A program made the position numbers. Shown here one piece after another: positions 15,001-36,000 of a stretch of DNA of 42,721 nucleotides. The stretch is from Actinomycetota bacterium (GTDB lineage Bacteria; Actinomycetota; Actinomycetes; JAKEEW01): NCBI GenBank assembly GCA_046725875.1, contig JBKOZJ010000013.1:1-42721 (forward strand), given 5' to 3'. Numbering within the stretch: the first letter of the stretch is position 1; each line of letters opens with the position of its first letter.

Positions 15001-18000
15001 TCGTCGGCATGGGCTACCTGACGCAGCTCTCCGGCACCGCGACCTTCGCGAACAGGTGTGGAGCGGGCGCCGGCAACTCCCAGCTGAGTCGATATCCTGA
15101 TCAAGGAGGTAGGCATGGAGACCTTGACCGCTGGAGAGGCTGCTGCTCTCGCGCGCTCCATGCTGAAGGGCGATGTGGACGATCTACGTGGCGTCTGGCG
15201 ATTCGTGATCGTGCAGCTCCTCGACGACTACAGCTCCGTGAAGCGCTTTAGGGGCCTTGCCGCCGCAGCCGATCTGTTCCGGGAGCCTCCCGGCGCGATG
15301 GGTGATAGCAGGGTAGATGCTGCCTTGGCCGCCCTTGCCGAGCATCTTGCGCGCCGGGACGGCTGGCCGACCCCGCTGTGGGCGGCCAGGCATCTTGGTC
15401 CGGCGATCCCGTGGTGGTTTGTCTCCGAGCTCGAGTCCCTGCAGGCGATGGCAATCCAGCAGTCGCCGCTGTCGTTTCGTAAACGAGGCGTGTTTATCGT
15501 GCACGGCGCGCTGGACCGCGTATGAAGGGCTCACTCGACGGCGAGACCTTGCGCGCAATGCTCACCGAACTCGCCGACGAGCTAAGAACTCGCGGCGTCA
15601 CCGGTGAGCTGTTCGTCGTCGGCGGGGCCGCGATGGTTCTTGCATACGACGCCCAACGGGCAACCCGTGACGTCGATGCGGTCTTCGAGCCGAAGCAGAG
15701 CGTGTACGAAGCAGCGGCTGAGGTTGCGAGGCGACGCGACTTGCCACCCGACTGGCTGAACGACGCTGTAAAGGCATTCATGCACGGTGACGATCCCGGC
15801 GCCGTCCAATACCTGGAGCTTCCGGGCCTCCGGGTCGACGTCGCCTCGCCGGAATACCTCCTTGCGATGAAGATCTTCGCGGCCCGAGCGGAGCTCGACG
15901 TCGAGGACATCCGGCGCCTGTACGAGCTATGCGGCTTCACGACCGCCCGCGAAGGATTGGACTTGGTCCAGCGCGAGTACCCGGGTCGGCCCATCCCGCC
16001 GAAGGTGCAGTTCATGCTGGAAGAGCTATTCCCGGATGCCTCGCGGGGTCACCAGGTGGAATAGCCTCGGCGCTGCGGCGCGCGTCGGGCCAGGTTCCCT
16101 CCTGGTGGCACGCTCCCGACTACACCAGACCCGACGTTTCCTGGCCGTTAGCAAGAACGGTGACGCGGAACGTCACCATCAGGCGGCATCGATCGCGTCT
16201 CGATGAGCAGGCTCGTCGAGGCGGCCATAGTGGTCGCCGGTTAACGCACTGAGAGATTCACTCAGCTTGGGCGCAGCGCCATCCAGAAGGCTTTGGCCGG
16301 CCGGGCCGACGGGTTGGACCACCGATGCGGGCGGTCGGTTCGAAAGTGGAGCGAATCGCCGGCTGACAGCACGTACGTCTCGCCGTCCACGTCGAACTCG
16401 AGGGTCCCGCTCAGAACGTGCACGAGCTCCTCGCCCGAGTGCTCCATCGGCCGTGGGCCGCTGTCCGCGTGAGGTTCGACGGTCGCAGCAGCACCCGCGA
16501 TGAAGAACCGGCCATAAGGACCGCTGATGCTCTCCAGCGTGAGACCCTGCTTCGACGTGTAGACCGGCTTGCGGTCGCTCTTCCGTACTAGCGCGACGGC
16601 GCTGTCGATCTCGCCGTCTTCATCCACGAAGTATGAGACGGGTCGGTTGAGGGACGCCGCGAGTTTGATCAGTGTCGTGATCGTCGGGACCATACCGTTC
16701 CGCTCGACCTTGTGAATCGCGGCAGCCGATACGCCCGAGCGCTCCGCGAGCTGCTGCAGGGACAAGCCCTTCTGCAGGCGGAGACGGCGGACCTTCGGCC
16801 CGATCGATTCGACGATCTCGTCGAGCATTGGTCCCCCTAAGGACGCTTCTGTGCGGGCCCAACCTGCGGCTAGTATAAGCGATGGTCCGTTTCCTATCGG
16901 AAACGGACGCCTGGTAGCGCCGACCGGGATAGGGGGTCGCCCCGTGCCACCTCGCGTGATCGTAGTTGGCGGCGGTGCCGGCGGGATCGGCGCCGCCGGA
17001 GGTGCGAAGCAGGCCACGCCTCAGGCATCGGTCACGGTCTTCACGGAGTTCGAGGACGTCGCCTACAGCCCGTGCGGGATCCCGTACGTCCATGGCCGGG
17101 AGATCGACGACTTCACCAGGCTGTTCCTGGCCGACAAAGAGACATACGTCCAGGCCGGCATCGACATCCACTATCAGACCCGGGTCGTGGCGCTCGACCT
17201 TGACGGGCAGACGGTTCACGTGCAAGCCGACGACGGTGGGCAAGAGGTTCCGTACGACCGGCTTGTCCTGGCCACCGGCTTCGACTATGCGAGCCCTGGC
17301 GTACCCGGGAGTGACCTAGACGGCCTCTACTACGTCAAGAACATCCGACGGGCGATGGAGTGGGACAAGGTCCTGGATTCGGTCTCCCGCGCGGTCGTCG
17401 TCGAGGCCACCCCGCTCGGCCTGGAGATGACCACCGCGCTCGCCCATCGCGGGATGGAAACTCACCTGATCGATCCGCGCCCGTGGCCGCTCGCCGACGT
17501 CGCCGACCCCGACGTCATGGCGCCGGTCGAGGAGTCGTGGGCCGAGCTTGGAGTGATCACACATCTGAATACGAAGCTTGTCGGGTTCATCGGCGATCGC
17601 CAGGTCGAGGCCGTCGCCACCTCGGACGGCGATTTGCCGTGCGAGCTCGCGGTCATTTGTACACACAAGCAGCCACAAAATGAGCTAGCCCGCGCGGCTG
17701 GACTCGACATCGGATCCACGGGCGGGCTGGTGGTCGACGAGCGGATGGAGACATCGCGCGGCGGGGTTTTCGCCGCCGGGGACTGCGTCGAGCTACCCCA
17801 CGGCGTCACCTGGGTGCCGGTCCAAGGCCTCTCGGGAAGTCACGCGTATGCCCAGGGCAAGGTAGCCGGCGGGAACGCCGCCGGCGGCGACCGGCGGTAC
17901 GTGCCCGTCTACGTGCCGTGGGCCATGGTCGCGGGCAAGTGGATGATCGGCGGCGTCTCCTTCGGCGAGACCCTCGCCACGGCGCTCGGCATCCCGTACG

Positions 18001-33000: not shown

Positions 33001-36000
33001 GCCGATGTCGTCGACGTCGAGTGGCGCATACCGGCCGGTGGCCAAGCCGAGGTCGTGGCCGCGCTGACCCAGCTGGCCGGCCCACAGCACGAGCAGGTGG
33101 CCGCGGCAAATGCGGAGGTTCTTCGTCGGCTCAACGCGGGCACGCCGCTGCTCGTCGGCGTTGCCCCCGCCGGCAAGGTTGTACCCGATCTCGAGCCATG
33201 CACCGTCCTGCATAGTGGCCCACCGATCGACTGGACGGGCATGTGTGACCCATTGCGTCGCTCCTTCTGCGCGGCGGTGGTCGCCGAAGGCTGGGCGAGC
33301 GACGTGGGCGAGGTGCCGGGGCTGGTGGGTGCGGGAAAGGTTCGGCTGGCGCCGGCAAACCTCCACGACACCGTTCTGCCGATGGCCAGCGCCATCGGTC
33401 CGAGCGCGCCCGTCGTGATCGTCGAAAACGAGTCGGGTCCGACGCGGGCCTTCTCTGGAATCAACCAGGGTCCCGGCCGGGCCCCGTGGCTCGGCGTCGA
33501 CTCGCCAGAGGCGATCGAGCGACTGGCCCTGGTACGGGACGTGGTGGCGCCGGCGCTTGCCACCGTGCTGGCATCGGCTGGACCGGTCGACGTATTCGCC
33601 CTGGTCGCCCAAGGCCTGCAGATGGGCGACGAGTTGCACATGCGGTCCCAGGCCACCACGAACCTGCTCTGGCGGACGCTGTTGCCGCACCTGGTGGAGG
33701 TCGACTCGCCGACCATCGGCGCGACTGCCCGCTTCCTTTCTGGCAACCATCTGTTCTTCCTGAACATTGCGATGGCAGCGGCGAAGGCCGTGCTCATGGC
33801 GGCGTACGACGTCCCCGCCTCGAGCATCGTGGTCGGGATGTCGCGCAACGGTACGACGTTCGGGATTCGGCTTGCCGGAACTGGCCCGGCCGAGTTCGTC
33901 GCGCCGGCACCACTCGTGGGCAATGCGCTCTACCACTCGGGATTTGGGGAGGATGCCGCCGCCCCCGACATCGGCGACAGTGCGGTATTGGAGCTGGTCG
34001 GACTCGGCGGCGCGGCGGCGGCCGCGTCCCCAGCCGTCGCAGCCTTCCTCGGCGGCGCGGTGCAGGACGCGATCGCCACGTCCCAGGCTATGGAGACGGT
34101 CTGCGCTGGCCGCAGCGCACGGTTCACGCTGCCGTTGCTCGAGCACCGCGGCTCTCCGCTCGGTGTCGACGCGTGCGCAGTCGTCGAGACGCAGACCACG
34201 CCTGCAATCAACACCGGCATCCTCCATAGCACCGACGGAGCGGGCCAGATCGGAGCGGGCGTCGCGCGCGCGCCGCTCGAGTGCTTCGAGGCTGCGGTCC
34301 TGGCGCTGGCCGGCTCACTCGGCTAGACCCGCTGGGCCCCCGTTGCCCCAAGCGGCGCCTAGCCGATCAGGCTCTTGACTTCGATCCCGACAAAGAATGC
34401 GATGACGATCTCGCTGATAATCCACGAGTTGGTGTTCATCCAGTCGCGAACCTTAGGCAGGAGGGCCCTGGCCCGCCTTCCCGCCACCAGCACCAGGAGC
34501 ACCGGAAGCGCCGTGAGAAGCAGCGTGACGAGGACGAACGGCAAGCAGTACCACCACGGGTCGTCGTTGCGCGCGAGGTATGAGCCAACCGAGATCGAGG
34601 TAATGATGTCGGTCGGAAACACGCCGAGCAACAGCAGGCCGAGGGTGAATGAGAGCCGCGGAGTCGCGGTCTGCAGTCTGCCCATCCACCTCGGCGGCTC
34701 GGCTTTCTTTCGATTGAGAAATACGAACACCCCAGCGACCAGCAGGAGCAGCAGGAGGATGACATCGACCACCTGTCCGGAGCCCTCTTTGTGAGACCCG
34801 CCGGCGGCGTTCCTCAGGAGTCTGGCGACAATGTATGCCAGCGTCACGAAGAACGTGACCGTGAGCAGTACACCAACGAGGAAGGCGGCGGAGTTCTTCC
34901 GCCAGTTTTCGCTGGTGGCGAGGAAGACGGCGGTTACGATCTGTGGACCGGCGATCATCACGAACGCCAGCGGGAGGACCGTCAGGAAACTGGGCATTTC
35001 GCGTTCATCTCCCGTCAGGCAATGACGGTGCTGTTGCTGTCTGTTATCGCCACCGGTCTGCTATCCCTTGCAGCTCATGCCTCTCAGATGACGAGGTCAC
35101 GACGCTAATCCTGCTCATTAAGCGGCGCTTAAGACCGGACGGGTAAGGTGCGGGGCGCGCCTGGGCCCGCGGCCCGCAACGGGGGATGCTCTGGACGAGG
35201 GCCCAGGCTGCGAAAACGTAGCAGCTGATGACCGGTCCGTCCTGATCCGTACTTAGATGGCCGGTCCACTACTGCACTTACTGGGCCTAAAGGGGGGCCT
35301 CTATGAGCCCAGATGGCAAATCGTCATGGATCGGCCGGCACCACGGCGTCATCCTGGGGCGGCGGTAACCCCGGCCACCTCTGCAGCATTGGTGGCACGC
35401 TCGATCACGACCATCTTCTCCTCGAGCGTTGCCGGGACGTCGTCGATCTCAGCCGCGACCTCCGCTCGGTCGAGGGCGGCCTTAACTCGTACGGGATCGG
35501 CATCAGCGACGCGGACCTTGCGGCCGACGAGCGTCACCGCCAGCCGGGCGGCGTTCAAGGCGTCGAAGGCATCCACCCACCTTGGGGCGCGCACCTCCAT
35601 CGCGGTTGTTCCGCCAACGATGTCGCGCTCGGTCCCCTCCGCCACCACCCGGCCGCGGGACATCAGAACGAGCCGGTCGGCCTGGCTGGCTTCCTGCATG
35701 TAGTGGGTTGTGACGAATACGCCGACGCCTCGCTCGGCCTGCTCGTGGATGACATCCCAGAGCCTGGCTCGGGCCAATGGGTCGACGCCCGAAGTTGGCT
35801 CGTCCAGCACGAGAAGTTCCGGCTCGTGGTCGAGTGCGGCCAGGAATGCGAGTCGTCTCTGCAGGCCGAGGCCGATTCCGCCGACCAGCTCGTGTCGCAT
35901 GGCAGCGAGGTCGGCCGGCAGCTCTGGCCTGGGGACGCCGAACGCCCGCGCGATGAACTCCAGGTTCTCCTCCACGGTCAGGTCGACGTACAGGCCGAGA

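What a model noticed while it worked through the whole genome (the two positions that open the first line are those of the whole stretch)
16944..34326. Complete xcbABCDE coenzyme M pathway inside a nitrilase-less Nit1C/MSMEG_0565-0572 cluster, no alkene genes
A 17-kb block holds homologues of all five bacterial coenzyme M (CoM) synthesis genes (ComA/XcbB, XcbA, XcbD, XcbE, XcbC) interleaved with the radical-SAM, GNAT, AIR-synthase-like, glycosyltransferase and DsrE-like genes of the 'nitrogen-starvation' Nit1C (MSMEG_0565-0572, Sll0783-0787) cluster, a CoA-disulfide-reductase-like flavoprotein, OsmC, and FdrA/AllG-like plus carbamate kinase genes, while the genome shows no epoxyalkane:CoM transferase, 2-ketopropyl-CoM carboxylase or alkene monooxygenase. 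Boldest reading: these actinobacteria make CoM (or a CoM-derived glycosylated/acylated sulfonate thiol) as a nitrogen-free redox thiol or cofactor with its own disulfide reductase, unrelated to a [...]
Evidence so far: NCBIfam scan: g00324 XcbD 575.6 bits (cut 600), g00326 XcbC 419 bits (cut 575), g00325 XcbE 283 bits (cut 450); g00323 'XcbA family protein' over its cut (ncbifam.tsv, call 16); g00322 ComA 39% identical to Xanthobacter XecG. Same table and scan: g00313 MSMEG_0572 family, g00314 MSMEG_0565 GT, g00319 MSMEG_0568 radical SAM, g00320 MSMEG_0567 GNAT, g00321 sll0787-type AIR-synthase-like (241 bits; also 153 bits to methanogenesis marker 2), g00311 CoA-disulfide-reductase-like 244 bits (cut 579) with the family's single-Cys motif AYSPCGIPY. 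Of 13 related loci from other Actinomycetota, 12 have the AIR-synthase-like gene directly upstream of the xcb genes, 9 keep g00319..g00328 in the same order, [...]
(Added by a program. Inside this text positions count along the whole contig: contig position 1 is position 1 of the stretch shown here. "Call 12" and the like, gene names such as g00115 and contig names such as C1 are that model's own, and its searches are not shown. The text may have been shortened before it was handed on; [...] marks where a part breaks off. The agent that wrote the report below was given it as the finding of a first reader that could run no searches.)

Follow-up and report, generated by a model that had tools for sequence, protein, structure and literature searches.

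The report
Coenzyme M genes inside stress cluster
A soil actinobacterium carries all the genes for making coenzyme M, a small sulfur cofactor so far linked in bacteria only to growth on alkenes, built into a widely conserved stress-response gene cluster of unknown chemistry, which points to a new role for this cofactor.

Summary
Window 16262-34326 carries 19 genes. Five of them form an xcbB-A-D-E-C operon whose products are 39-46% identical to the tested Xanthobacter CoM enzymes. They sit among Nit1C/gpr-type genes (DsrE-like, GT4, radical SAM, GNAT, AIR-synthase-like), a CoADR-like flavoprotein, OsmC, FdrA/AllG-like genes, carbamate kinase and a HTH-cupin regulator.

Corrections: the AIR-synthase-like and OsmC genes lie on the minus strand, and the regulator extends the block to 16262.

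Of 80 related loci, none has epoxyalkane:CoM transferase, 2-KPCC or HPCDH nearby, and 34 of the 35 long loci carry Nit1C-type genes. The window's genome and five isolate genomes show no EaCoMT.

New here:
- The same cluster exists without xcb in one family, so xcb is a cassette lying between the AIR-synthase-like gene and allG.
- A Methylocystis plasmid joins OsmC-xcb to a nitrilase-bearing Nit1C cluster.
- CoADR-family flavoproteins also flank xcb in three alkene clusters.
- The small orf104 protein is predicted to bind the flavoprotein.

Best reading: CoM, or a close analogue, is made for this cluster's own thiol chemistry. What that chemistry is stays open. No chemistry was tested.

The parts
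16262..16828 (-). HTH_3 + Cupin_2 (XRE-cupin, PuuR-like) regulator, divergent from the CoADR-like gene
   Evidence: Pfam HTH_3 52.3 bits and Cupin_2 70.8 bits. NCBIfam PuuR 84.1 bits, below the 211 cut-off. Homologues of 46-74% identity occur in 29 of 80 related loci and on the Methylocystis plasmid at 54%.
16888..16905 (.). Perfect palindrome CGTTTCC-TATC-GGAAACG in the regulator/CoADR spacer; candidate operator
   Evidence: The only other match with up to 3 mismatches in the window is at 27024-27041, in the AIRS/ComA spacer. The count (2) is not above chance (1.93 expected).
16944..18287 (+). CoADR/NADH-oxidase-family single-cysteine flavoprotein (AYSPCGIPY)
   Evidence: TIGR03385 244 bits, below the 578.8 cut-off. 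Pfam Pyr_redox_2 160 bits. Nearest solved chains are NADH oxidase 6ruz at 208 bits, CoADR 5l1n at 170 and CoA-persulfide reductase 8a56 at 161. C44 is invariant in 17 of 17 orthologues.
18284..18598 (+). orf104: small Arg-rich protein (likely start 18347, 83 aa) with the motif MPGSHR..W; predicted partner of the flavoprotein
   Evidence: No family found. Found in 27 of 80 loci, as is CoADR; lies directly after CoADR in every locus map read. Complex model ipSAE 0.83 against a best control of 0.00.
18595..19116 (+). MSMEG_0572/Sll0783-family DsrE-like protein
   Evidence: TIGR04044 199.8 bits, above the 109.85 cut-off. Pfam DsrE 27.6 bits.
19130..20299 (-). MSMEG_0565-family GT4 glycosyltransferase
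   Evidence: TIGR04047 371.2 bits, above 259.85; next-best hits are MshA at 93 bits and BshA at 52. The ATG at 20299 overlaps the FdrA stop codon.
20296..21810 (-). FdrA/AllF-like succinyl-CoA-synthetase-alpha-type protein
   Evidence: NF004760 364.5 bits, below the 433 cut-off. Pfam Ligase_CoA 105.7 bits. A 44%-identical paralogue lies on contig C114 beside AllG and AllH.
21807..22751 (-). Carbamate kinase
   Evidence: TIGR00746 338.1 bits (cut-off 358.25). PRK12352 282.1 bits, above its 266 cut-off.
22874..23554 (+). orf226p: conserved protein with no family and no recognised fold
   Evidence: Present in 26 of 80 loci, in the xcb-less loci and in Methylocystis at 30% identity. AF2 pLDDT 90.8. 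Best Foldseek E-value 0.09; best VIA Z 6.0.
23629..24492 (+). Amidohydro_2 metal-dependent hydrolase
   Evidence: Pfam PF04909 62.3 bits. No NCBIfam match. Present in 20 of 80 loci.
24452..25627 (+). MSMEG_0568-family radical SAM protein
   Evidence: TIGR04043 394.9 bits, above the 303.7 cut-off.
25581..26069 (+). MSMEG_0567/Sll0786-family GNAT
   Evidence: TIGR04045 101.6 bits, above the 68.45 cut-off.
26032..27003 (-). sll0787-type AIR-synthase-like (PurM-superfamily) protein, divergent from ComA
   Evidence: TIGR04049 241.1 bits (cut-off 321.3) and methanogenesis marker 2 at 153.1. Pfam AIRS and AIRS_C. Start read from the sequence.
27041..27826 (+). ComA/XcbB phosphosulfolactate synthase
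   Evidence: Pfam ComA 256.6 bits. TIGR03849 247 bits (cut-off 280). 39.2% identical to Xanthobacter XcbB.
27823..28719 (+). XcbA-family (DUF7714) Fe-S reductase
   Evidence: NF052538 324.4 bits, above the 150 cut-off. 42.3% identical to Xanthobacter XcbA. Five cysteines are invariant across 16 sequences, including Xanthobacter.
28688..30052 (+). XcbD-like adenylosuccinate-lyase-family enzyme
   Evidence: NF052536 575.5 bits (cut-off 600); the next family scores 417.9. 42.7% identical to Xanthobacter XcbD.
30052..31020 (+). XcbE-like PLP enzyme
   Evidence: NF052537 281.6 bits (cut-off 450); the next family, CuyA, scores 207.5. 45.5% identical to Xanthobacter XcbE. Start.
31025..32527 (+). XcbC-like argininosuccinate-lyase-family enzyme
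   Evidence: NF052535 419.1 bits (cut-off 575); the next family, argH, scores 247.9. 40.9% identical to Xanthobacter XcbC. Start.
32514..32903 (-). OsmC-family peroxiredoxin-like protein
   Evidence: Pfam OsmC 66.6 bits. NCBIfam OsmC-related (seleno)protein 67.9 bits, below the 95 cut-off. Present in 45 of 80 loci.
32887..34326 (+). AllG-like (DUF1116) protein carrying an FdrA-C-terminus-like N-terminus
   Evidence: Pfam AllG 221.1 bits. Residues 14-63 match positions 505-554 of the FdrA model. Follows XcbC, or OsmC, directly in 53 of 55 loci.

Best explanation
The block is a real, conserved cluster of 19 genes. A complete bacterial-type coenzyme M cassette (xcbB-A-D-E-C) sits between the divergent AIR-synthase-like gene and the allG-like gene of a pre-existing Nit1C/gpr-like stress cluster.

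By homology, the cassette would run as follows:
1. PEP plus sulfite gives phosphosulfolactate (ComA/XcbB).
2. Phosphate is eliminated to give sulfoacrylate (XcbC).
3. Cysteine is added (XcbD).
4. A PLP-dependent cleavage and decarboxylation gives sulfoethanethioaldehyde (XcbE).
5. Reduction gives CoM (XcbA).

By inference, CoM or a very close sulfonate thiol is not used for epoxide metabolism. It serves this cluster's own enzymes as their small thiol. The most likely use is as reductant for the OsmC-type peroxidase, recycled by the CoADR-like flavoprotein together with its predicted small subunit orf104. The Nit1C-type enzymes and the FdrA/AllG/carbamate-kinase enzymes carry out a still unknown nitrogen-related reaction.

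What is shown: the gene content, the conservation, the cassette structure and the lack of alkene genes. What is inferred: the product and its use.
For: Family scores: each Xcb homologue scores best against its own Xcb model, well ahead of the next family. The proteins are 39-46% identical to the Xanthobacter enzymes, which were tested in vitro (PMC9457059, passages read). Five XcbA cysteines are invariant, including in Xanthobacter.

Conservation: 177 species genomes encode an XcbA relative, and the best 80 loci were examined.
- All five xcb genes are present in 48 of 80 loci, and in 28 of the 35 loci of 18 kb or more.
- The order B-A-D-E-C holds in 45 of those 48.
- At least one Nit1C-type gene is present in 34 of the 35 long loci.
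- AllG is present in 32 of 35, FdrA in 28 of 35 and OsmC in 26 of 35.
- XecA, XecC and XecD are present in 0 of 80.

Loci that looked minimal were not: 5 of 5 such genomes have the radical SAM gene; for the two whose contig ranges I compared it lies a few kb beyond my flank.

No alkene genes elsewhere: EaCoMT was not found in the window's genome or in 5 isolate genomes, where the best hits are 25-30% identical and lie in 737-844-aa frames of MetE size.

Cassette: three genomes of one family carry the same cluster, with AIRS(-) and AllG(+) directly divergent and no xcb.

Cross-phylum link: Methylocystis iwaonis plasmid pSS37A-Re-1 has nitrilase, radical SAM, GNAT and AIRS divergent from OsmC-ComA-XcbA-D-E-C, plus homologues of the regulator and of orf226p.

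Redox theme:
- The M. smegmatis MSMEG_0565-0572 cluster gives GlnR-dependent peroxide resistance (PMC6039565, passages read).
- OsmC is constant across all three versions of the cluster.
- CoADR-family single-cysteine flavoproteins also lie next to xcb in Nocardioides JS614, in M. chubuense NBB4 and in the Xanthobacter xcb2 region.
- orf104 is predicted to bind the flavoprotein: ipSAE 0.83 (runs 0.83, 0.83, 0.81) against a best control of 0.00. That mark was reached by 116 of 157 solved complexes and 2 of 215 mismatched pairs. The runs agree in at least 98% of contacts and the partner's pLDDT is at least 79. My own alignments were used, so the calibration holds only roughly.
Against: - XcbD, XcbC, XcbE, ComA and the AIRS-like protein all score under NCBIfam's cut-offs. 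The product could therefore be an analogue.
- The CoADR-like gene (59-62% identical), orf104 and OsmC are also present in the xcb-less cluster. They cannot depend strictly on CoM.
- That xcb-less cluster instead carries an SsuD-like monooxygenase joined to or next to a PLP decarboxylase, and an aminotransferase. Their roles are unknown.
- The tightest partners of xcb are AllG, FdrA and the glycosyltransferase. These point to carbamoyl or glycosyl chemistry rather than to a plain redox buffer.
- From recall, not from a call: Actinomycetota already have mycothiol, and I know of no report of CoM reducing an OsmC protein.
- The window's genome is 89% complete.
- There are no expression data and no metabolite data.
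Confidence: 0.5

Rival explanations
1. CoM is a covalent carrier in nitrogen scavenging. A cyano or carbamoyl group would ride on the CoM thiol as a thiocyanate or thiocarbamate. A hydrolase (nitrilase, nitrile hydratase or amidohydrolase) or the AIR-synthase-like enzyme would interconvert the two forms. FdrA/AllG would then phosphorolyse S-carbamoyl-CoM to carbamoyl phosphate, and carbamate kinase would turn that into ATP, NH3 and CO2.
For: - AllG follows XcbC, or OsmC, directly in 53 of 55 loci. FdrA, AllG and carbamate kinase are as conserved as the Nit1C-type genes.
- AllFGH with a carbamate kinase is the E. coli oxalurate-to-carbamoyl-phosphate system (PMC11326118, abstract seen in the listing).
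- Enzymes that hydrolyse nitriles or amides recur in the cluster: nitrile hydratase beta (192.9 bits, above the 152.2 cut-off) and its accessory protein in L080, nitrile hydratase beta in L063, an AtzE-like amidase in L037, and the nitrilase in Methylocystis.
- From recall: Nit1C is needed for cyanide assimilation in Pseudomonas (titles and abstracts), and HypE, a PurM-superfamily enzyme, dehydrates an S-carbamoyl group to S-cyano.
Against: - AllH is missing from the window's cluster. It lies only on contig C114.
- The Methylocystis version lacks FdrA, AllG and carbamate kinase within 9 kb.
- The xcb-less version keeps FdrA, AllG and carbamate kinase, so these enzymes do not need CoM.
- HypE is only a weak match to the AIRS-like protein, at 19.5 bits.
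- No such CoM adduct is known.
Confidence: 0.2
2. CoM, or an earlier sulfonate intermediate, is a building block of a larger metabolite. This could be a new glycosylated or acylated low-molecular-weight thiol, made by the GT4, the hydrolase, the ATP-dependent AIRS-like enzyme and the GNAT, much as mycothiol or bacillithiol is built.
For: - The GT4's next-best families are MshA (93 bits) and BshA (52 bits).
- GT4, hydrolase, ATP-dependent enzyme and GNAT mirror MshA/B/C/D. This resemblance is recalled, not tested.
- The glycosyltransferase travels with xcb in 26 of 35 long loci.
Against: - The same glycosyltransferase, GNAT and AIRS families occur in clusters with no xcb at all: the M. smegmatis-type loci L103-L105 and the xcb-less family.
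- The Methylocystis xcb-Nit1C locus shows no glycosyltransferase within 9 kb.
- Several other GT4 families score similarly.
Confidence: 0.15
3. The five homologues make a different sulfonate or thiol, not CoM. The resemblance to xcb would then reflect shared chemistry only.
For: - XcbC (419 against 575), XcbE (282 against 450) and XcbD (575.5 against 600) fall below NCBIfam's exception cut-offs.
- Identity to the tested enzymes is only 39-46%.
Against: - All five steps are present, in one operon.
- The gene order is the same as in the alkene-oxidising actinobacteria Nocardioides JS614 and M. chubuense NBB4. Those proteins are themselves only 42-54% identical to the window's.
- In a FastTree tree, XcbD of Nocardioides groups with the cluster's XcbD proteins (support 0.996) rather than apart from them.
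Confidence: 0.12
4. CoM serves ordinary epoxide or alkene metabolism after all, and the CoM-using enzymes lie elsewhere or went unrecognised.
For: - The window's genome is 89% complete.
- Genomes were searched with only one EaCoMT query and one 2-KPCC query.
Against: - None of 80 loci has XecA, XecC or XecD homologues.
- 5 of 5 isolate genomes lack an EaCoMT-like hit above 30% identity.
- No Phenol_Hydrox-family monooxygenase was found in the window's genome. The control genomes did not ring either, so this is weak evidence.
- True EaCoMTs on plasmids are 46-49% identical to XecA and easy to detect.
Confidence: 0.03

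Closest known systems
xcbABCDE coenzyme M biosynthesis operon of Xanthobacter autotrophicus Py2 (Wu et al. 2022, PMC9457059) and its actinobacterial alkene-cluster versions (Nocardioides JS614, M. chubuense NBB4)
   Same: All five enzyme families are present in one operon. Identity to the Xanthobacter proteins is 39-46%. The gene order B-A-D-E-C matches the actinobacterial alkene clusters. The XcbA cysteines are conserved. A CoADR-family flavoprotein lies nearby in all of them.
   Different: There is no EaCoMT, 2-KPCC, HPCDH or alkene monooxygenase nearby (0 of 80 loci) and no EaCoMT in the genomes searched. The cassette lies inside a Nit1C/gpr-like cluster. Three of the four NCBIfam Xcb models score under their cut-offs; only the XcbA family model passes.
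Nit1C / gpr cluster (MSMEG_0565-0572, Sll0783-0787; Podar et al. 2005 PMC1199592, seen in a listing; Yang et al. 2018 PMC6039565, passages read)
   Same: The DsrE-like, GT4, radical SAM and GNAT proteins pass the family cut-offs, and the AIRS-like protein has this family as its best hit. A stress role is plausible, since the M. smegmatis cluster gives peroxide resistance.
   Different: There is no sll0784 nitrilase. No MSMEG_0569 or MSMEG_0570 family match appeared among the ORFs scanned. The cluster has gained the xcb cassette, a CoADR-like flavoprotein with orf104, OsmC, FdrA/AllG/carbamate kinase, Amidohydro_2, orf226p and a HTH-cupin regulator.
Oxamate carbamoyltransferase AllFGH with carbamate kinase AllK of E. 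coli (PMC11326118, abstract seen)
   Same: FdrA-like, AllG-like and carbamate kinase genes are clustered.
   Different: There is no AllH in this cluster, although one related locus (L081) has it. FdrA scores below its cut-off. A separate FdrA/AllG/AllH set, 43-44% identical, lies on contig C114. The substrate here is unknown.
CoA-disulfide reductase / NADH oxidase / CoA-persulfide reductase group of single-cysteine flavoproteins
   Same: The fold family and the active-site cysteine motif match.
   Different: The score of 244 bits is far under the CoADR equivalog cut-off of 578.8. The protein has a predicted small Arg-rich partner, orf104, which was not found beside the alkene-cluster flavoproteins. 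The substrate cannot be assigned.

Membership tests
Bacterial CoM biosynthesis (XcbABCDE) | ComA/XcbB phosphosulfolactate synthase | tested here: met
   Pfam ComA 256.6 bits against a 25.2 cut-off. The archaeal equivalog TIGR03849 scores 247, below 280. 39.2% identical to Xanthobacter XcbB.
Bacterial CoM biosynthesis (XcbABCDE) | XcbC, XcbD and XcbE reach NCBIfam's exception cut-offs | tested here: not met
   419.1 against 575, 575.5 against 600, and 281.6 against 450. Each is nevertheless the best-scoring family by 75 to 171 bits.
Bacterial CoM biosynthesis (XcbABCDE) | XcbA-family protein with conserved cysteines | tested here: met
   NF052538 324.4 bits, above 150. C184, C212, C233, C253 and C254 are invariant in 16 of 16 sequences, including Xanthobacter.
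Bacterial CoM biosynthesis (XcbABCDE) | All five genes in one operon | tested here: met
   27041-32527, all on the + strand, with overlapping or abutting genes. The same order is seen in 45 of the 48 related loci that carry all five.
Bacterial CoM biosynthesis (XcbABCDE) | The product is 2-mercaptoethanesulfonate | not testable with these tools
   Needs enzyme assays or metabolite analysis.
CoM-dependent alkene/epoxide pathway | EaCoMT, 2-KPCC and HPCDH beside xcb or in the genome | tested here: not met
   0 of 80 loci. In the window's genome the best EaCoMT hit is 20.1 bits and tblastn finds none. The best 2-KPCC hit is 27% identical. 5 isolate genomes reach at most 30% identity.
Nit1C / gpr (MSMEG_0565-0572) | DsrE-like, radical SAM, GNAT and GT family members | tested here: met
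   TIGR04044 199.8, TIGR04043 394.9, TIGR04045 101.6 and TIGR04047 371.2, all over their cut-offs.
Nit1C / gpr (MSMEG_0565-0572) | sll0787-type AIR-synthase-like protein | tested here: inconclusive
   This is the best family, but 241.1 bits falls under the 321.3 cut-off.
Nit1C / gpr (MSMEG_0565-0572) | sll0784/Nit6803-type nitrilase | tested here: not met
   The best hit in the whole genome is 36.6 bits against a 502.6 cut-off, on another contig.
Nit1C / gpr (MSMEG_0565-0572) | MSMEG_0569 flavoprotein and MSMEG_0570 family protein | tested here: not met
   Neither family appeared in the NCBIfam scans of the cluster's ORFs. The genome as a whole was not searched for them.
Oxamate carbamoyltransferase AllFGH + AllK | AllF (FdrA), AllG, AllH and carbamate kinase together | tested here: not met
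   FdrA scores 364.5, below 433. AllG scores 221.1 in Pfam. Carbamate kinase PRK12352 scores 282.1, above 266. AllH is absent from the cluster and lies only on C114.
CoA-disulfide reductase (equivalog) | Score over the equivalog cut-off | tested here: not met
   244 against 578.8. Membership holds at superfamily level only.

The most novel reading that the evidence does not exclude
CoM has a third biological role, after methanogenesis and alkene oxidation. It would be the dedicated thiol cofactor of the enigmatic Nit1C/gpr-type systems. Cyano and carbamoyl groups would be carried on its sulfur as thiocyanate and thiocarbamate, chemistry of the HypE/HypF kind. A new FdrA/AllG thiocarbamate phosphorylase together with carbamate kinase would convert them into NH3 and ATP. 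The CoADR-like flavoprotein with orf104 would either keep the cofactor reduced or be the missing physiological reductase of XcbA.
Probability: 0.15. Interest if true: 0.9.

Novelty: new variant of a known kind. Interest (0 to 1): 0.78.

Why it matters
A 2024 paper still states that CoM biosynthesis genes are known only from methanogenic archaea and aerobic alkene-utilising bacteria (PMC11507031, Discussion passage). This work contradicts that:
- 177 species-level genomes encode an XcbA relative.
- More than 2,000 protein clusters match XcbA in metagenomes.
- All 80 loci examined are non-alkene.

The function of Nit1C/gpr clusters has been open since 2005. A defined small molecule that can be looked for by mass spectrometry gives that problem a handle. 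Cultured carriers exist: Microbispora hainanensis DSM 45428, Pseudonocardia ammonioxydans CGMCC 4.1877, Streptomyces chiangmaiensis JCM 16577 and two Nonomuraea strains.

The recurring CoADR-family neighbour of xcb also suggests a candidate for the physiological reductant of XcbA, which was left unidentified in PMC9457059.

I found no paper that links xcb or phosphosulfolactate with Nit1C genes. Subscription journals and supplementary files were not searched.

Tried and rejected
- orf134 on the + strand (32508-32912) is the antisense shadow of OsmC. orf145 on the minus strand (22748-23185) has no homologue in any of the 80 loci.
- orf226p gave no usable hit in the protein atlas. It has no PDB fold match: best Foldseek E-value 0.09, and best VIA Z 6.0 with rmsd 4.0-4.8 over 78-104 residues. 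It is not similar to the 220-aa ORF in L024.
- orf104 folded alone gave only pLDDT 68.6.
- I first read loci such as L024 as 'minimal' clusters (xcb + OsmC + AllG + GT + FdrA). That was wrong: 5 of 5 such genomes have the radical SAM gene.
- I supposed that the CoADR-like gene, orf104 and OsmC occur only together with xcb. This was refuted.
- The '1 TGA' reported inside two CoADR-like orthologues is simply the terminal stop codon, not selenocysteine.
- A GlnR-box-like pattern gave 22 matches against 21 expected, so nothing can be concluded. The palindrome is not shared by related loci: 0 of the other loci match.
- Xaut_5066 is an ATP-grasp acyl-CoA synthetase. It is not similar to FdrA.
- Sequencing runs: 3 DNA holders with small shares, and no RNA holder listed.
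- The XcbD tree does not resolve whether the alkene-type xcb of Nocardioides lies inside or outside the cluster-linked set (support 0.147). The first tree attempt was killed.
- My regulator query was out of frame by one base, so its count of 11 of 80 is void. One search, in the correct frame, gives 29 of 80.

Full report
**Observation.** The window has about 68% G+C, so I chose ORFs by codon-position G+C and scanned them against NCBIfam and Pfam.

| Protein | Model | Bits | Cut-off |
|---|---|---|---|
| XcbD | NF052536 | 575.5 | 600 |
| XcbC | NF052535 | 419.1 | 575 |
| XcbE | NF052537 | 281.6 | 450 |
| XcbA family | NF052538 | 324.4 | 150 |
| ComA | Pfam PF02679 | 256.6 | 25.2 |
| MSMEG_0572 (DsrE-like) | TIGR04044 | 199.8 | 109.85 |
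| MSMEG_0565 GT | TIGR04047 | 371.2 | 259.85 |
| MSMEG_0568 radical SAM | TIGR04043 | 394.9 | 303.7 |
| MSMEG_0567 GNAT | TIGR04045 | 101.6 | 68.45 |
| sll0787 AIR-synthase-like | TIGR04049 | 241.1 | 321.3 |
| CoA-disulfide reductase | TIGR03385 | 244 | 578.8 |
| FdrA | NF004760 | 364.5 | 433 |
| AllG | Pfam PF06545 | 221.1 | 27 |
| Carbamate kinase | TIGR00746 | 338.1 | 358.25 |

Two corrections are needed. The AIR-synthase-like gene (26032-27003) and OsmC (32514-32903) are on the minus strand. The ORF on the + strand between XcbC and AllG is only the antisense shadow of OsmC. ComA starts at 27041, which leaves a 37-bp spacer to the divergent AIR-synthase-like gene.

**Orthology with the tested pathway.** Xanthobacter pXAUT01 was fetched from the plasmid collection. 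The window's proteins are 39.2% (XcbB), 42.3% (XcbA), 42.7% (XcbD), 45.5% (XcbE) and 40.9% (XcbC) identical to the Xanthobacter proteins. The reactions of those proteins are described in PMC9457059 (outline and passages read). Each window protein scores 75 to 171 bits higher against its Xcb model than against the next family. Five XcbA cysteines are invariant across 16 sequences, including Xanthobacter. This fits the Fe-S and redox role reported for XcbA.

**No alkene context.** In the window's genome (3.76 Mb, 197 contigs, 89.1% complete):
- EaCoMT finds only a 20-bit match in a methionine-synthase-like frame, and nothing by tblastn.
- 2-KPCC finds only generic flavoproteins of at most 27% identity.
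- No Phenol_Hydrox-family monooxygenase was found, but the control genomes did not ring either, so this is weak evidence.

Five isolate genomes that carry the cluster have, at best, hits 25-30% identical in 737-844-aa frames. True EaCoMTs on plasmids are 46-49% identical to XecA.

**Conservation.** A scan of one genome per species found 177 genomes encoding an XcbA relative, and the best 80 loci were returned with up to 10 kb on each side. By their record titles they are mostly Actinomycetota MAGs. They include five isolates (two Nonomuraea, Microbispora hainanensis, Pseudonocardia ammonioxydans, Streptomyces chiangmaiensis) and a few records labelled Dormibacterota, Gemmatimonadota or Bacillota. 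I mapped the window's proteins onto the loci with tblastn (E at most 1e-6, at least 50% of the query covered, best non-overlapping hit kept).

| Gene | Of 80 loci | Of 35 loci of 18 kb or more |
|---|---|---|
| ComA | 70 | 33 |
| XcbD | 76 | 33 |
| XcbC | 58 | 32 |
| XcbE | 54 | 29 |
| AllG | 55 | 32 |
| AIRS-like | 47 | 26 |
| FdrA | 45 | 28 |
| OsmC | 45 | 26 |
| GT | 41 | 26 |
| Carbamate kinase | 41 | 24 |
| GNAT | 41 | 26 |
| Radical SAM | 40 | 26 |
| CoADR-like | 27 | 23 |
| orf104 | 27 | 22 |
| DsrE-like | 27 | 22 |
| orf226p | 26 | 15 |
| Amidohydro_2 | 20 | 14 |
| Regulator | 29 | 21 |
| XecA, XecC, XecD | 0 | 0 |

Further counts:
- 34 of the 35 long loci have at least one Nit1C-type gene.
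- All five xcb genes are present in 48 of 80 loci, in the order B-A-D-E-C in 45 of those 48.
- AIRS(-) lies directly before ComA(+) in 41 of 51 loci.
- AllG, or OsmC, lies directly after XcbC in 53 of 55.

Many misses are contig ends. Loci that seemed to lack the Nit1C-type genes have them just beyond my flank, in 5 of 5 genomes tested (one of these, G410, is flagged unpublished). In a sample of 400 genomes of the phylum, XcbA is present in 10 (8 of 21 in one family). The radical SAM passes its cut-off in 16, and both are present in 5. XcbA relatives form more than 2,069 protein clusters in metagenomes.

**The cassette.** Three genomes of one family, one of them a single 3.4-Mb contig rated 99% complete, have no XcbA yet carry the rest of the cluster. 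The gene order is: orf104, CoADR-like (59-62% identical, AYSPCGIPY kept), OsmC, GT, FdrA, then carbamate kinase, DsrE-like, orf226p, Amidohydro_2, radical SAM, GNAT, AIRS(-) and AllG(+). AIRS and AllG are directly divergent there. That is exactly the junction occupied by ComA-XcbA-D-E-C-OsmC in the window. So xcb is a cassette gained, or lost, within an older cluster; the direction is not resolved. It also follows that the flavoprotein, orf104 and OsmC do not depend strictly on xcb. Between FdrA and carbamate kinase, the xcb-less version carries three other genes: an SsuD-like alkanesulfonate-monooxygenase homologue (247-258 bits, cut-off 518) fused or adjacent to a diaminopimelate-decarboxylase-like PLP enzyme, and an aminotransferase. 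M. smegmatis-type loci have only the DsrE-like, radical SAM, GNAT and AIRS genes, and in two of the three the GT.

**A second phylum.** The Methylocystis iwaonis plasmid pSS37A-Re-1 is annotated with a Pnap_2097 family protein, sll0787 AIR-synthase-like protein, MSMEG_0567 GNAT, MSMEG_0568 radical SAM and Nit6803 nitrilase on one strand. On the other strand, divergent from these, it has OsmC, phosphosulfolactate synthase and the XcbA, D, E and C homologues. It also has homologues of the regulator (54% identical) and of orf226p (30%). No EaCoMT-like hit on a Methylocystis plasmid appears among the 30 best-scoring rows listed (152 lower rows not seen). The link between xcb and the Nit1C core is therefore not a quirk of one lineage, and here the nitrilase is present. 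Other actinobacterial variants carry nitrile hydratase beta and accessory genes (L080, L063), an AtzE-like amidase (L037) or AllH (L081).

**The flavoprotein.** Its nearest solved relatives are NADH oxidase, CoADR, CoA-persulfide reductase and NADH peroxidase, so no substrate can be assigned. CoADR-family single-cysteine flavoproteins (29-33% identical) also lie directly divergent from ComA in Nocardioides JS614 and M. chubuense NBB4, and next to xcbD2/C2 in Xanthobacter. A second cysteine (GDC, C281) is present in 17 of 17 xcb-linked orthologues and in the 3 alkene-cluster proteins, but is replaced in the 2 xcb-less orthologues read. The numbers are small and this may be chance. In four loci XcbA has moved to sit directly behind CoADR-orf104 (L026, L031, L037, L068). 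The genomes of L026 and L031 still encode ComA elsewhere. orf104 (A2, 17 sequences, motif MPGSHR..W) is predicted to bind the flavoprotein. The ipSAE is 0.83 (runs 0.83, 0.83, 0.81) against a best control of 0.00. That mark was reached by 116 of 157 solved complexes and 2 of 215 mismatched pairs. The runs agree in at least 98% of contacts, and the partner's pLDDT is at least 79. My own alignments were used, so the calibration holds only roughly. This supports binding but does not show it.

**Interpretation.** Established: the gene content, its conservation, the cassette structure and the lack of alkene genes. Inferred by homology: that the cassette makes CoM or a close analogue. Inferred from context only: what the thiol does. 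Three lines point to thiol redox chemistry. The M. smegmatis cluster confers GlnR-dependent peroxide resistance (PMC6039565). OsmC is constant in all versions. A CoADR-family enzyme accompanies xcb everywhere. A 2025 paper's abstract reports that extra CoM protects methanogens from oxidative stress (PMC12713407; listing only). Two lines point instead to nitrile or carbamoyl chemistry. AllG and FdrA are welded tightly to xcb, and nitrilase, nitrile hydratase and amidase recur in the variants. In that reading the thiol could be a carrier. I cannot separate these readings by computation.

**Phylogeny.** I built a FastTree LG+gamma tree of XcbD from 48 sequences:
- the window;
- 42 of the 76 loci with an XcbD hit (hits shorter than 1250 nt were left out);
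- two Xanthobacter copies, Nocardioides and Methylocystis;
- one paralogue from the window's genome as outgroup.

The tree puts all Xcb proteins together (support 0.94). Nocardioides groups with the cluster-linked set (0.996), and Methylocystis falls inside that set. Whether Nocardioides branches outside the set is unresolved (0.147).

**Literature.** PMC11507031 (2024, Discussion passage) states that CoM biosynthesis genes are known only from methanogens and aerobic alkene users. A 2021 preprint reports archaeal-type comABCDE in a few bacteria, which is a different gene set. Searches for xcb, DUF7714, phosphosulfolactate with Nit1C terms, CoM with low-molecular-weight thiols in Actinobacteria, and CoM with FdrA/AllG found no description of this cluster. 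Subscription journals and supplementary files were not searched.

Noticed in passing
L100/L113, L101/L114, L102/L115 (genomes G131, G388, G333): An xcb-less version of the cluster. Between FdrA and carbamate kinase it carries an SsuD-like alkanesulfonate-monooxygenase homologue (247-258 bits) fused or adjacent to a DAP-decarboxylase-like PLP enzyme, together with an aminotransferase. This may be an alternative small-molecule module.
   Followed up: partly
L118 (Methylocystis iwaonis plasmid pSS37A-Re-1, record 215342-234208): A canonical Nit1C cluster with the Nit6803 nitrilase, divergent from OsmC-xcbB-A-D-E-C, with homologues of the regulator and of orf226p. A second Methylocystis plasmid (hit H4) also has XcbA but was not examined.
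   Followed up: partly
L080 16966-18742; L063 16719-18426; L037 13457-14860; L081 16214-17071; L048 16638-18152: Variant loci hold, inside the cluster, nitrile hydratase beta with its accessory protein (L080), nitrile hydratase beta (L063), an AtzE-like amidase (L037), AllH (L081) or a true ArgG (L048).
   Followed up: partly
G000 contig C114 28966-32269 and 40941-41390: The window's genome has a second FdrA/AllG set, 43-44% identical, with AllH beside it. This is probably the ordinary oxalurate system. A weak nitrilase-superfamily hit lies nearby.
   Followed up: no
window 17784-17786 (Cys281 of the flavoprotein): The GDC cysteine is present in all xcb-associated flavoproteins examined (17 of 17, plus 3 alkene-cluster proteins). 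It is Val or Ala in the 2 xcb-less orthologues.
   Followed up: partly
window 16888-16905 and 27024-27041: A perfect 18-bp palindrome lies upstream of the flavoprotein gene, and a copy with 3 mismatches lies in the AIRS/ComA spacer. The count is not above chance, and related loci do not share it.
   Followed up: yes
G000 contig C26 14360-14458: A 33-residue stretch 97% identical to the N-terminal part of XcbE lies on another contig. It may be an assembly fragment or a strain variant.
   Followed up: no
window 12620-14532; 15115-16064; 8253-9191; 40083-41435: Flanking genes that are not part of the cluster: a HisKA_3 kinase with a LuxR-type response regulator, a DUF6036/AbiEii-like nucleotidyltransferase, and two ECF-type sigma factors. 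ABC-2 transporters and an SfLAP-family membrane protein (34359-34997) are also present; the SfLAP gene has no homologue in any of the 80 loci and the ABC ATPase only weak ones in 5.
   Followed up: no
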